This document shows, piece after piece, positions 16,126-54,835 of a DNA stretch of 64,000 nt. The DNA is taken from the NCBI GenBank assembly GCA_964016885.1, contig OZ024743.1:59334001-59398000 (forward strand), read 5' to 3'. How positions within the stretch are numbered: position 1 is the stretch's first letter; the number at the start of each line of letters is the position of its first letter. A program made the translations under genes and the position numbers. The notes below the pieces were generated by a model. That model ran no database searches. It was not told the origin of the DNA and saw only the letters and a list, made by a program, of their open reading frames with translations. This stretch comes from Eledone cirrhosa (lineage: Eukaryota).

Positions 16126-16312
16126 AACGAAGGAACTGTGGTAAGGAACCAGGTGGACCATAACGCACCAAAGTACTCAATACTTAAGGTAGTAGAGTGG
16201 GTAATAGGAACCAGTAAGACCCCGACAGCTGAGCTCAAGCCGTTTCGACTGCTAATTCTGAATTAGCCGTCGAAACGGCTTGAGCTCAGCTGTCGGGGTC
16301 TTACTGGTTCCT
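16126..16312. mobile_element. Tiny fold-back insertion of the PLE family 2 3' end
   Basis: Matches 14459-14592 inverted, followed by 14459-14513 direct; inside (TA)n. Confidence 0.85.
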
Positions 16313-16781
16313 ATATATATATATATATATATATGTATATATATGTAAATATATAAATATATATATATATATAAATGGAATAGAATGAATATATATGGTT
16401 CCTATATATTACTGGTTCCTATATATATATATATATATATATATGTAAATATATAAATATATATATATATATGAATGGAATAGAATGAAACGAAATTTCA
16501 TTTCTCACTCTTAAACGGCACTTACTTAAATGTAAGTATGTATGTATACGTACATATATATATGTATACAGACGTACAGCAACATGTATATGTATATATA
16601 GTATATATATATATATATATATATATATATATACAGGCACACATATATATATGTACTTATCAGTTTACCGAACTTTATTATAATGTTCGCTTTGTTCGTT
16701 TGTAAACAAACGGACAACCTGATTTACGCCGTACAGTGTTCAGGCAACCACGTCACCTTTTTGTTCAACACTGACACAGGA

Positions 16782-16824
16782 ACGATGTACTAGTTTCATG
16801 CTTGTTAGCTATCGTCAGCACCGT
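16782..16824 (-). ncRNA. Retrozyme HHR copy 1
   Basis: acggtg CTGACGA tagctaacaagcat GAAAC ta GTA catcgt. Confidence 0.8.
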
Positions 16825-17329
16825 ATACCTTTCTGCCAGATGGTTGAACGTCCGAAAGTATATACTTTCCTTATGAATATAAACGGCTGAGCAGCCTAAT
16901 TTTCATATCGAGTGAGTTCAGTCGGCCAGGCGCACCGAAAACGATAAATGGAATAGAATAAAACGAAATTTCATTTATCACACTTAGTACGGCACTTACT
17001 TAAATGTAAGTATGTATGTATACGTACATACATATATGTATACAGACGTACAGTGGCATGCATATATATATATATATATATATATATATATATATATATA
17101 TATATGTATATATATATATATATATATATATATATATATATATATATATATATATATATATATATATATATTTATACATACAGGCACACACATATATATG
17201 CACGTATCAGTTTACCGAACATTTATTATAATGTTCGCTTTGTTCGTTTGTAAACAAACGGACAGCCTGATTTACGCCGTACAGTGTTCAAGCAACCACG
17301 TCACCTTTTTGTTTAACACTGACACAAGA

Positions 17330-17372
17330 ACGATGTACTAGTTTCAAGCTTGTTAGCTATCGTCAGCACCGT
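17330..17372 (-). ncRNA. Retrozyme HHR copy 2
   Basis: acggtg CTGACGA t-agc-taacaa-gct-t GAAAC ta GTA catcgt. Confidence 0.85.
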
Positions 17373-17910
17373 ATACCTTTCTGCCAGATGGTTGAACGTC
17401 CGAAAGTATATACTTTCCTTATGAAAATTAACGGCTGAGCAGCCTAATTTGCATATCGAGTGAGTTCAGTCGGCCAGGCGCACCGACAACGATAAATGGA
17501 ATAGAATGAAACGAAATTTCATTTCTCACATTAAGTACGGCACATACTTAAATGTAAGTATGTATGTATACGTACATGCATATATGTATACAGACGTACA
17601 GTAGCATGCATATATATATATATATATATATATATATATATATATATATATATATATATATATATATATAAAATATATATATATATATATATATATATAA
17701 AATATATATATATATATATATATATAAAATATATATATATATATATATATATTTATACATACAGGCACACACATATATATGCACGTATCAGTTTACCGAA
17801 CATTTATTATAATGTTCGCTTTGTTCGATTGTAAACAAACGGACAGCCTAGTTTACGCCGTACAGTGTTCAGGCAACCACGTCACCTTTTTGTTCAACAC
17901 TGACACAGGA

Positions 17911-17953
17911 ACGATGTACTAGTTTCATGCTTGTTAGCTATCGTCAGCACCGT
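17911..17953 (-). ncRNA. Retrozyme HHR copy 3
   Basis: Same motif as copy 1. Confidence 0.8.
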
Positions 17954-18362
17954 ACACCTTTCTGCCAGATGGTTGAACGTCCGAAAGTATATACTTTCCT
18001 TATGAACATAAACGGCTGCGCAGCCTAATTTTCATATCGAGTGAGTTCAGTCGGCCAGGCGCACCGATAACGATGAATGGAATAGAATGAAACGAAATTT
18101 CATTTATCACACTTAGTACGGCACTTACTTAAATGTAAGTATGTATGTATACGTACATACATATATGTATACAGACGTACAGTAGCATGCATATATATAT
18201 ATATTTATACATACAGGCACACATATATATATGCACGTATCAGTTTACCGAACATTTATTATAATGTTCGCTTTGTTCGTTTGTAAACAAACGGACAGCC
18301 TGATTTACGCCGTACAGTGTTCAGGCAACCACGTCACCTTTTTGTTCAACACTGACACAGGA

Positions 18363-18405
18363 ACGATGTACTAGTTTCAAGCTTGTTAGCTATCGTCATC
18401 ACCGT
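18363..18405 (-). ncRNA. Retrozyme HHR copy 4 (C3 mutated)
   Basis: Core reads ATGACGA; the rest is intact. Confidence 0.6.
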
Positions 18406-18666
18406 ATAACTTTCTGCCAGATGGATGAACGTCCGAAAGTATATACTTTCCTTATGAAAATTAACGGCGGAGCAGCCTAATTTGCATAACGAGTGAGTTC
18501 AGTCGGCCAGGCGCACCCAAAACGATAAATAGAATAGAATGAAACGAAATTTCATTTCTCACTCTAAGTACGGCACTTACTTAAATGTAAGTATGTATGT
18601 ATACGTACATACATTTATGTATAGAGACGTACAGTAGCATGCGTATATATATATATATACATGTAT

Positions 18667-51635: not shown

Positions 51636-51680
51636 GCTCTGACGAATCCTACGGTTACGTAAGGAAGAAACATTGTAAGC
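51636..51680 (+). ncRNA. Type I HHR (right arm)
   Basis: gct CTGACGA a-tcctacg-gtta-cgtaagga-a GAAAC att GTA agc. Confidence 0.72.
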
Positions 51681-52599
51681 CAATAAAAATCTTTTGATGT
51701 TGTAGACGCTCTTGTGTTCTTTTTCATATATACGGCTCTGCTCCAAAGCATAGAGCTAGTTATTATGCTGCCAATACCTTAATGGGACACGGGTATACAA
51801 TACCTAACTCCTATTAACCTAGGTATTTATATATATATATATATGTATATATATATATATATATATATATATATATATATATATATATATATATATATAT
51901 ATATATATATATATATATATATATATATACACTTATATATGAGTGTATATATTTATTCATTTAATATGACTAATTAATGCGTGTGCACAGCTGAAACTCC
52001 AAATATATATATAAATGGGTGGGGGTGTGGGTAATTTGTAGGATAATTTAATCTAAAATGTTGCACGGGCGTAAGGAAGAAGTGATAAATAAATCCCAGT
52101 GTTCGAACAAAATATACAACATTTTTATTAGTCGTTCACCTGTTTTATAGAAGTAAATTTAGGCAACCGACATAAACTTAACAAAACGTTTTGCAACAAT
52201 TAGTTGTATCTGTCTCATCAATTTCATTAGATATTTAAAAAAAAATACATTTAGCAGTGGCAATCATCTAATGAGGACAAGTTTGAATACCGCAATGCCA
52301 TACTGATAACAGGAGAGAAACACATAATATTATATGAGCCGTTAAACATGGAATAGTATGTATGAAAATAAATGTAAATGAAATCTGGATAACACCTGTA
52401 ATAATAGTAATACGTGTAATTTATTAAATATATTTCACCCATAATATGTTTAGATACGTATGTTTTATATCGTCACACGATCTATACACAGACACAAAGA
52501 GATACACATATACACAAACACAAAAAGGCAGACACACACATATATATATATTTTTTCCTGCTCTTATATATATACGTTGAGGGTTCATATTCCACTAAA

Positions 52600-52950
52600 A
52601 CAGACGACCAAACAGACGCATACTGCCACACACTTAAACAGGCATGTACAATAAAATCCAATTTAAAGGGAGACTACTCTTTATCCACCTAACCTTAACT
52701 CTTTGACATTAGAGATAGAACAGATACTCTATACCATTTCCTGTCAGCATGACTTGGCAAGCTATTTAGAACACTGGTTTAACCGCTTTACTTCCCTCCG
52801 AAGAAGAGATATTATCTCGAAAATTAAGGATATTTAAATAAATCTAAGGTAAAAGACTAATTGTCAACACTATCTTTTGCATTTGCATTCTTTATTCTAT
52901 GTCCATACCTGCATTGTTTTGGCTTTATTATACATATACAAACGTTTATA
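52600..52950 (+). mobile_element. Another PLE family 4 3' UTR copy with HHR at 52795-52829
   Basis: Matches 41225-41550 inverted; cct CCGAAGA a gagat-att-atctc GAAAA TTA agg. Confidence 0.75.
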
Positions 52951-53294
52951 TATATATATATATATATATATATATATATATATATAATTATAGATATGGA
53001 TAGATAGATAGATAGATAGATAGATAGATAGATAGATAGATAGATAGATAGATAGGTTGCGTGTCGTTTTAACGATACCTTTTGCCACCAATTTTCAATT
53101 GCATTTGTTACCTACATCGACAAACCTATCTCATACACAATGCCTACTCAGATAGACACAGTTAGGCTCCTTCACAAACTGTATGTATTTGAAACAGTCT
53201 TTTTCCTGACCGATGTATCAAATGTACATTTCTCCTCCACCTATCGTGATTTTGTCAATTGCTGCAAACGCGTCAAGGAAACACCTTTTTCCTG

Positions 53295-53550
53295 ATCCGT
53301 AACACTGATAATGTCGCAGATGTGCAACGAAAGAACTTTGATAGGCTGTATATATATATATATATATATTTATATCGGTATTTTTAACCGTTGGTCAATC
53401 AATGATAAACATTGATTGCCAAATAAATAAATTAACTATGGAGATATAAAATATACAGAAGCGAAAACCAACCAAACAGTGAGTGTGTTCTGTTATTATT
53501 TATGCCAATATTATTACAACAATATGACATTCCCCAAGTATAACAATATA
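53295..53550 (+). mobile_element. Diverged relative of the Neptune-like pLTR
   Basis: HHR-like core, hairpin, gaagcgaaaaccaaccaaacagtgagtgtgttctg and ATG ACA TTC CCC AAG match 63020-63275. Confidence 0.75.
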
Positions 53551-53573
53551 TATATATATATATATATATATAT

Positions 53574-53741
53574 AACGAAGGAAATGTAGTAAGGAACCAG
53601 GTGGACCATAACGCACCAAAGTACTCAATACTAAGGGTAGTAGAGTGGGTAATAGGAACGAGTAGGACCCCGACGGCTGACCTCAAGAATTAGCCGTCGA
53701 AACGGCTTGAGCTCAGCCGTCGGGGTCCTACTCGTTCCTAT
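53574..53741. mobile_element. Tiny fold-back insertion of the PLE family 2 3' end
   Basis: Same architecture as 16126-16312. Confidence 0.85.
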
Positions 53742-54624
53742 ATATATATATATATATATATACATATCAAATTACAAAATATGAGGAAATAATAGACAAA
53801 AACATACATGTTTTTTCTTCAAAGTCCCAAATGCAGTTTCGCCGATCCGTGAAAAAGACTGATCAGGAAAAAGACGGATCAGGAAATAATAAGACTGTTT
53901 CCTTGACGCGTTTGGAGCTGTGAGAAAATCTCTATAAGCGGAGGGAGAGATTAACATGTGATACATCTATCAAGAAAAAGGATCGTTTCTTTTGTAGAAG
54001 ACGGGTAGTAAGGTGGGCAGAAAGTGAATATCGTATTTGCTAGAATAATCAGTTATTATACTCTAGGGTTAACTCGAATATAGGGGAGTTAGAGAGAATA
54101 TAATAATGAATTACACACCATATTCCCACCATATATATATATATAACAGCAGAAGGCCGGAGAGTGAATATGGTTTGTGAAGTTTTAATGTTCCGAAAAA
54201 CATTATATATATTTCAATGACCAGGTTAAACCATCCGATTATAACGCAAGTACTTGGCGACATTGTCATGTCCGGATTCTCTGATTTTGGTTTACGTATT
54301 CATTTTATTGATTTTTTAAATAGGCAATCCGCCCTTCCCGATGTTGCTAGGGTCTTGCTCATAATCGGTTGATGTGTCTTGACTATTGAAATATGTGTAA
54401 TACTTTTTTTTACGTTAAAACTTTAAAAGGATATTTCCAGACCCAACTCATGTTGCTTTAAATAAAGATTTTATTCCGTTCCTGCACCGGCGACGGGATT
54501 CAACATCTACAATTGATGAGTTGCATAACATAGAATGCTTTTCTTACGATTCCATTGTGGTTTACTAACCATAAAGATCGGTCCTATCCATTGGTGAACC
54601 ACACAATCTAAATGGTGTATATAT

Positions 54625-54835
54625 ATATTTATTAAAATAACAGATTAAAGTTTAAGCAAAGAATCGCTGCTTTCACCCTTAACGGGATCTTAAGGGTGAA
54701 AGCATCGATTCTTTGCTTAAACTTTAATCTGTTATTTTAATAAATATTTGCTCTACGGTTCTTATATATTTGATATATATTTATCCTTATCGAGCCCTCT
54801 TTGGATTTTAGTCTTCAAATTTATTATTATTACTA
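54625..54835. mobile_element. Tiny fold-back insertion of the PLE family 1 3' end
   Basis: Matches 5722-5875; the inversion point lies in HHR stem II (~54690). Confidence 0.85.

What the first reader, a model, noticed from the sequence alone, without database searches (positions are those of the whole stretch)
16126..54835. Recurrent micro fold-back insertions whose inversion point lies inside the ribozyme
Seen: five 120-210 bp palindromic inserts in (TA)n (16126, 23410, 48688, 53574, 54625) from four families all invert in or next to the HHR; at 48.7 kb stem II is itself the hairpin centre. The two family 2 inserts restart at the same base (gaattagccgtc), and three family 2 short arms end ~20 nt past the predicted cleavage site. 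Inference: RT stalls at the ribozyme fold and the cDNA self-primes or switches template, which offers a mechanism for Penelope inverted ends.
Basis: partly seen in the sequence, partly recalled or inferred. Interest (0 to 1): 0.72.

Follow-up and report, generated by a model that had tools for sequence, protein, structure and literature searches.

The report
Penelope run-off copies joined head-to-head
These tiny mirror-image insertions are thousands of short copies of Penelope jumping-gene ends whose two arms stop at the same fixed spot, often with one extra G, which likely marks the capped start of the element's RNA and suggests both sides of a DNA break prime separate copies that are then joined, rather than the enzyme stalling on the ribozyme and folding back.

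Summary
The five inserts are real: 165-210 bp head-to-head pieces of four Penelope-like (PLE) families in (TA)n, with junctions in or beside hammerheads. Genome-wide the clustering survives correction for 3' bias. In family 2, 51 of 72 short arms end in a 13-nt window (stop rate 0.11/nt against 0.007/nt); families 1 and 5 also have walls. The mechanism is not a ribozyme stall with fold-back. The wall lies in loop II in one family and 5' of the core in two others. It sits on an initiator-like A, with a TATA-like box about 30 nt upstream in two families. An extra G precedes it (48/100 and 55/100 hits, controls 22 and 9), sometimes on both arms. Only 28 of 109 junctions have fold-back-compatible geometry. 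Best reading (0.7): two cDNAs primed on opposite target strands, from the two known RT start sites, both run off the capped 5' end of the pLTR-promoter transcript and are joined. No RNA evidence was obtained. The scan noted run-off on another genome (e1-9951431) and two-sided priming elsewhere in this one. My paper searches did not find the cap-marked wall.

The parts
16127..16312 (.). Family-2 micro insert: tail arm (minus sense, 16127-16260) joined to short arm (plus sense, 16260-16312); both 5' ends 4-6 nt inside the wall, 1-nt overlap
   Evidence: sequence
53575..53739 (.). Family-2 micro insert: tail arm stops in stem III, short arm starts at C3+48; 2-nt overlap at 53686-53687; short arm reaches about 20 nt further 5'
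54625..54833 (.). Family-1 micro insert: short arm (minus sense) reaches C3+3, tail arm starts at C3+12; 2-nt overlap at 54690-54691
23382..23551 (.). Family-5 micro insert: tail arm (minus sense) starts at the predicted +1 (23526, C3-6); short arm starts 3-5 nt 5' of the predicted cut; 2-nt overlap
48617..48815 (.). Older family-3 micro insert centred on stem II (48736-48761); loop II in the short arm's orientation
10527..14592 (.). Long family-2 PLE insertion with the same architecture (short arm left, tail arm right, junction in the ORF); used as coordinate reference
14405..14498 (+). Family-2 type I hammerhead: core 14410-14416 (U3-A8 variant), GAAA 14471-14474, predicted cut after 14493
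   Evidence: variant described in PMC4209133; cleavage not tested
14424..14431 (+). TATA-like box starting 29 nt before the wall (predicted promoter element)
14453..14453 (+). Wall base (C3+43), A of an initiator-like TTAGTCC; predicted capped transcription start
14511..14511 (+). Short 3' end (internal RT start site), 18 nt past the predicted cut
14512..14592 (+). Family-2 tail (about 80 nt) ending at the distal RT start site
5840..5883 (-). Family-1 hammerhead core region (C3 at 5878, atypical A at core position 4) with the wall base at 5883 (C3-5)

Best explanation
The micro inserts are ordinary two-armed Penelope insertions whose two arms are likely separate run-off cDNAs, predicted to be primed on opposite strands of a cut (TA)n target, to end at the likely capped transcription start inside the pLTR, and then to be joined head to head. 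Steps: (1) shown: two fixed 3' ends, a sharp 5' wall, an extra G at the wall, 0-4 nt overlaps or small inserts at the joint, both arms from the same subfamily. (2) Established for other PLEs: pLTR promoter; nicking and extension of both strands; two internal RT start sites bounding the tail. (3) Inferred: the protein uses the start sites near the 5' end of the transcript, so RT reaches the cap after about 60 nt (short arm) or about 140 nt (tail arm), copies the cap as C and often adds an A; the two cDNA 3' ends anneal or are jumped onto and are filled in, often after trimming of a few bases or early capture of the tail cDNA. The hammerhead is near the junction only because it lies beside the start site.
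For: Wall: 51/72 (family 2), stop rate 0.110 against 0.007 and 0.0055 per nt; family 1 0.031 against 0.004 and 0.003; family 5 0.048 against 0.002 and 0.005. Summed depth of public-run contigs rises about 20-fold across 14442-14477. Extra G before the wall base among the first 100 listed hits: family 2 G48/C44/A8 (of 6,308) against G22/C29/A49 two to three bases further in (of 1,096), Fisher p 4e-10 for G:A; family 1 G55 (of 2,445) against G9 (of 770), p 1.5e-12. In fetched junctions the G was not explained by the partner arm in 20 of 29 (family 2) and 15 of 17 (family 1); six junctions have both arms reaching +1 with only 1-4 nt between them and a G on at least one arm (L120, L354, L358, L360, L362, L373). 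TATA-like boxes at -29 (family 2) and -30/-33 (family 5). Short arm reaches more than 2 nt further 5' in 53/109 pairs, ends within 2 nt in 28/109, and 18/109 tail arms do not overlap the short arm. Arms agree at 215/220 subfamily-diagnostic positions. PAc cuts and extends both strands, starts RT at two sites bounding the tail, and does not need hammerhead cleavage (PMC11167929). An untemplated G is read as cap copy for L1 (PMC9341517, passages).
Against: No RNA data: the one RNA run offered gave no laid contig, so +1 and the cap are inferred from DNA. In family 2, C is nearly as common as G before +1 (44/100); a native variant explains only about 6% of the 6,308 (9/100 of 4,342) and the rest is unexplained. 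Family 1 has no TATA-like box at -30 that I could see. In family 5 the native base is G, so the cap signal is ambiguous (T51/G41/C8). Family 3 shows only a diffuse cluster and family 4 none in 30 loci. The family-2 wall is 13 nt wide, and a secondary A at C3+48 shows no clear G excess (G27/A26/T47). 28/109 junctions are compatible with fold-back. The samples come from the start of one contig and from exact-match patterns, which favour young copies.
Confidence: 0.7

Rival explanations
1. RT stalls on the ribozyme fold and the single cDNA self-primes or switches template.
For: Junctions cluster in or beside hammerheads; a weak loop-II hairpin has its 3' base at about C3+47, where family 2 has a shoulder; in families 1 and 5 the wall is at the base of stem I; 28/109 pairs fit fold-back geometry; stem II is the centre at 48.7 kb.
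Against: Wall position differs by family; stronger stems are passed at background rate; extra G on one or both arms; 81/109 pairs do not fit; several family-3 arms run through the whole of stem II; a family-2 RNA starting at +43 would lack the core.
Confidence: 0.08
2. The wall is a 3' splice site or another processed RNA 5' end rather than a capped start; the extra TG or G is the end of a short upstream exon or leader.
For: In all three walled families an AG after a pyrimidine-rich run lies at the wall; in D. virilis the intron end maps to the 5' end of helix I (PMC4209133); family 1 shows splice variants further upstream.
Against: No constant sequence longer than 1-2 nt precedes the wall in 52 + 26 junction rows or in 30 family-5 rows; double-ended junctions extend only about 1 nt beyond +1; TATA spacing fits a start site.
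Confidence: 0.1
3. The micro inserts are copies of a few master palindromic mini-elements, or long inverted insertions whose centres were deleted after insertion.
For: Some junctions recur (for example L045/L050, L060/L088/L092, L147/L149); palindrome centres are unstable (general knowledge).
Against: Dozens of different arm-end combinations in both subfamilies; deletion would not stop at one base or add a G.
Confidence: 0.05
4. Self-priming on an antisense template produces the head-to-head junction (hypothesis of PMC3846280).
For: Explains head-to-head palindromes and intron retention (PMC3846280, passages); arms share a source.
Against: The extra base and the promoter motifs are on the sense strand at a sense start; spliced sense-strand variants occur among family-1 copies; non-overlapping arms in 18/109 pairs.
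Confidence: 0.04

Closest known systems
EN+ Penelope-like elements with inverted pLTR and optional tail (PMC8557442 passages; PMC3846280 passages)
   Same: Head-to-head inverted 5'-truncated copy, tail on one arm only, (TA)n targets, hammerhead in the pLTR, TATA and Inr motifs noted in pLTRs.
   Different: Here most family-2 insertions are pLTR-only pieces of under 210 bp with a sharp 5' wall and an extra G; tails are about 65-100 nt, not 30-40. PMC3846280 left the junction mechanism open and favoured self-priming on antisense RNA.
PAc (Poseidon, Anolis) internal RT initiation in vitro (PMC11167929, parts 1-2 of 4 read)
   Same: Two RT start sites bounding the tail; both strands cut and extended; predicted dimer; hammerhead cleavage not needed; 5' truncation of the template shortens the product.
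   Different: That paper does not describe joining of the two products, inverted junctions or a cap-marked wall in the parts read.
L1 twin priming and cap-derived untemplated G (G: PMC9341517 passages; twin priming recalled, not read)
   Same: Both target strands prime cDNA on one RNA and are joined by microhomology; extra G at full-length 5' ends.
   Different: In L1 the second primer anneals at a variable internal site and the arms do not overlap; here both starts are fixed and both arms copy the same 5' segment, giving a palindrome.
Minus-strand strong-stop DNA of LTR elements (recalled)
   Same: Short cDNA from a 5'-proximal start running off the capped end.
   Different: Target-primed and fixed in the genome as a dead end; no tRNA primer or strand transfer.

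Membership tests
EN+ Penelope-like elements | ORF with RT and C-terminal GIY-YIG endonuclease linked to these 3' ends | tested here: met
   Family-2 ORF has GIY-YIG-bearing Atlas look-alikes at 0.96; families 1, 5 and 3 carry ORFs 35-51% identical to it; family 4 has a weak RVT_1 hit, E 2.3e-4, below cut-off. No Pfam hit at 1e-3.
EN+ Penelope-like elements | Inverted pLTR structure with tail on one arm | tested here: met
EN+ Penelope-like elements | Type I hammerhead in the pLTR | tested here: met
   Core, GAAA and three stems readable in all five families; pairs checked for family 2; family 1 has an atypical core base; no hammerhead among the Rfam rows listed.
EN+ Penelope-like elements | Hammerhead self-cleavage | not testable with these tools
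   No peak of arm ends at the predicted cuts; the family-2 anchor cannot show short arms starting at the cut.
Cap run-off (full-length 5' end) products | Sharp 5' wall with extra G specific to the wall base | tested here: met
   Families 2 and 1; ambiguous in family 5.
Cap run-off (full-length 5' end) products | Capped RNA 5' ends at that base | tested here: inconclusive
   No usable RNA run.
Single-cDNA fold-back inversions | First (tail) arm reaches at least 3 nt further 5' and second arm is contained in it | tested here: not met
   28 of 109 pairs; 1 of 5 window inserts.
RT structural stall products | Stops at the 3' base of the strongest stems, same element across families | tested here: not met
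Non-LTR retrozymes | Tandem units each with a complete hammerhead | tested here: not met
   Inserts are head-to-head, and family-2 inserts lack the core.

The most novel reading that the evidence does not exclude
Every inverted Penelope insertion is made by double target-primed reverse transcription: both ends of the cut prime cDNA from two fixed sites, probably on one capped sense RNA, and the micro palindromes are genomic strong-stop-like products that record each family's transcription start to the base. In family 2 that start lies inside the ribozyme, so the promoter-driven transcript begins without a hammerhead, while in families 1 and 5 the hammerhead is the first thing transcribed and would remove the cap.
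Probability: 0.5. Interest if true: 0.8.

Novelty: new variant of a known kind. Interest (0 to 1): 0.66.

Why it matters
How PLEs make their head-to-head inverted ends, and from which RNA strand, has been open (PMC3846280 and PMC8557442 both call for experiments). If the reading holds, over ten thousand young inserts in one genome show sense, capped templates and two-sided priming. They also map PLE start sites without RNA data and give base-level predictions for the existing in vitro PAc system. They are an abundant source of short perfect hairpins in this genome.

Tried and rejected
Rfam evalue scan: only spurious miRNA-type hits among 150 listed rows. A strict CUGANGA descriptor found one chance-like site and missed the real cores. 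A DNA search returns only the best 40 of 1,185 candidates and is biased to long copies, so it was not used for counts. RNA evidence: run X1 gave nothing laid; no raw RNA reads were offered. Unconstrained folds did not give the hammerhead for families 1, 2 and 5. PDB search of the family-4 RT region: one hit at E 0.85. The family-4 query was out of frame and its rows are ignored. Partner-arm calls for long family-5 arms are reference-end artefacts and were excluded by the micro-pair filter. Cleavage-site run-off: no tail arm ends at family-2 +84, one at +83; 1/67 family-1 and 1-2/68 family-5 short arms at the cut. Secondary start at C3+48: no clear G excess, although three neighbouring pairs have G on both arms. 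A long spliced leader was considered and rejected because no constant upstream sequence appears.
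Full report
Observation. The window (G000:C4, a 3.0-Gb assembly) is packed with Penelope-like elements. There are RT-thumb/GIY-YIG ORFs at 6.1-7.9 kb, 11.7-13.3 kb and 55.4-62.8 kb. The family-2 ORF has GIY-YIG look-alikes in the Atlas, and related ORFs flank family-5 and family-3 ends in fetched loci. The five inserts are present, with corrected limits given under parts. Each has a short arm and a tail arm pointing outwards into (TA)n, as does the 4-kb family-2 insertion at 10527-14592. 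Hammerhead cores are readable by hand. Family 2 has the U3-A8 variant described in PMC4209133 (parts 1-2 of 4 read), and its three stems pair canonically. The three short ends lie 18 nt past the predicted cut. That fixed end and the extra tail match the two RT start sites shown for PAc (PMC11167929, parts 1-2 of 4 read; its three text supplements held none of my four terms; its figures could not be seen).

Genome-wide test. Exact short-end patterns gave 14,952 hits for family 2, 13,093 for family 1, 3,665 for family 5, 3,072 for a family-3 anchor and 7,969 for family 4. I fetched the first 72, 70, 70, 50 and 30 in position order on contig C1. Three family-1 and two family-5 hits were dropped as identical over a 180-nt key, leaving 67 and 68. 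Positions are counted from core base C3. In family 2, 51 of 72 short arms end at +39..+51 with the mode at +43, 14 end further 3' and 7 pass; 42 of 63 partner tail arms end in the same window. The stop rate is 0.110 per nt in the window against 0.007 over +52..+80 and 0.0055 over -20..+38. Family 1 gives 0.031 at -8..+3 against 0.004 and 0.003; family 5 gives 0.048 at -7..+3 against 0.002 and 0.005. The windows were chosen after seeing the data. In contigs of public run X2 the summed depth rises from about 150,000 to 3.5 million between 14441 and 14477 (X2 may be the assembly's own sample), and many different inverted joints enter at this point. So the clustering is real and survives the 3' bias correction. 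It is not universal: family 3 shows a diffuse cluster at -26..-2 among inverted copies, and family 4, whose hammerhead is about 220 nt from the short end, shows no wall in 30 loci.

What the wall is. It falls in loop II in family 2 and at the base of stem I in families 1 and 5, so not on one structural element. RT passes hairpins of -7.7 and -4.9 kcal/mol at background rate and stops next to one of -1.9. The wall base is an A after a pyrimidine in an initiator-like context (the Inr and TATA labels are recalled consensus motifs). A TATA-like box starts at -29 in family 2 and at -30 or -33 in two family-5 subfamilies; I saw none in family 1. A promoter and start site inside the pLTR are established for D. 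virilis (PMC2377424, passages and Discussion read). Among non-native bases before the wall, G makes up 48 of the first 100 listed hits in family 2 (A 8, C 44) against 22 at a control position (A 49, C 29), and 55 in family 1 against 9. These were counted by hand from the listings; tests are. In fetched junctions the G was not supplied by the partner arm in 20 of 29 family-2 and 15 of 17 family-1 cases. It was preceded by T in 14 of 17 family-1 cases. In six junctions both arms reach +1 with only 1-4 nt between them and a G on at least one arm. An untemplated G is the accepted trace of cap copying in L1 (PMC9341517, three passages). Against this reading: C before +1 in family 2 is mostly unexplained (a native variant accounts for about 6%), family 5 is ambiguous because its native base is G, and no RNA data were available. 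A 3' splice site is the main rival, because an AG after pyrimidines sits at each wall and PMC4209133 reports an intron ending at helix I in D. virilis. But no constant upstream exon appears in any junction row examined.

Fold-back or two cDNAs. A single cDNA that folds back must be the tail arm, must reach at least 3 nt further 5' than the second arm, and must contain it. This holds in 19 of 63, 3 of 21 and 6 of 25 pairs. The short arm reaches further in 26, 16 and 11. In 5, 9 and 4 pairs the tail arm does not overlap the short arm at all. Of the five window inserts only 23.4 kb fits. At 48.7 kb the loop matches native loop II in the short arm's orientation (5-6 of 8 against 2 of 8, two reference copies), so stem II supplied homology between two cDNAs rather than a fold-back. 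Joints are blunt, overlap by 1-7 nt or carry small inserts. Arms agree at 215 of 220 subfamily-diagnostic positions where about half would agree by chance. They therefore come from one source locus, possibly one RNA; I could not separate these two.

Mechanism. Shown: two fixed 3' ends, wall, extra G, joint anatomy, shared source. Known for PAc: both strands cut and extended, two internal starts, cleavage dispensable. Inferred: the protein engages the start sites near the 5' end of the pLTR-promoter transcript; each target strand primes one cDNA; both run to the cap; the 3' ends are joined, often with trimming or early capture of the tail cDNA. Long inverted copies would arise the same way from the start sites at the far end of a read-through RNA. 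A family-2 transcript starting at +43 would lack the catalytic core.

Comparison and novelty. Inverted pLTRs, tails and (TA)n bias are known (PMC8557442, 12 of 22 passages; PMC3846280, 11 passages, which proposes antisense self-priming and leaves the question open; PMC3681739, 3 passages). The 2026 retrozyme preprint (10.64898/2026.07.22.740005, part 1 of 5) concerns tandem units. Searches returned no paper whose listing, or whose text where I read it, describes a cap-marked wall or double TPRT for PLE inversions; most subscription papers and bioRxiv supplements are outside this library. L1 twin priming and strong-stop DNA are recalled comparisons. My reading was recorded before any look-up. 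Afterwards I found an unchecked note with the run-off idea on another genome (e1-9951431) and notes on two-sided priming and single-RNA origin in this genome; they are not counted as evidence.

Noticed in passing
window 8150-8280 and 5982-6056; L101, L109, L211: Family-1 copies join two different upstream donor-like sites to one acceptor about 104 nt before the core, while most copies keep the intron-like stretch: spliced and unspliced variants both retrotransposed.
   Followed up: partly
L037, L067, L339, L074: Family-2 junctions with long A or T runs (up to about 20 nt) directly after the cDNA end, suggesting tailing or slippage at the template end.
   Followed up: no
window 5878-5872 (-): Family-1 hammerhead core has A at position 4 in nearly all copies seen, and families 1 and 5 close stem II with a U-U-like pair; activity untested.
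   Followed up: no
L322, L342, L348, L349, L352, L356, L248: Short locally templated duplications at the joints, as expected from repeated annealing attempts.
   Followed up: no
window 54849-63330: Family-4 element with a 1114-aa ORF, asparagine-rich stretch and C-terminal GIY-YIG region in partial-tandem plus inverted arrangement, copies over 99% alike; no 5' wall in 30 genomic loci.
   Followed up: partly
window 16420-21830: Array of about 550-bp units in both orientations separated by (TA)n runs; not examined.
   Followed up: no
window 48843-49030 and 31753-31930: A further two-copy repeat with a minus-strand hammerhead-like core at 48938, directly next to the family-3 insert.
   Followed up: no
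families 2 and 5 tails (window 14512-14592, 23382-23450): The tails of two otherwise different families share a short motif around GTACTCAATAC, and their promoters share an AAATACCA element.
   Followed up: no
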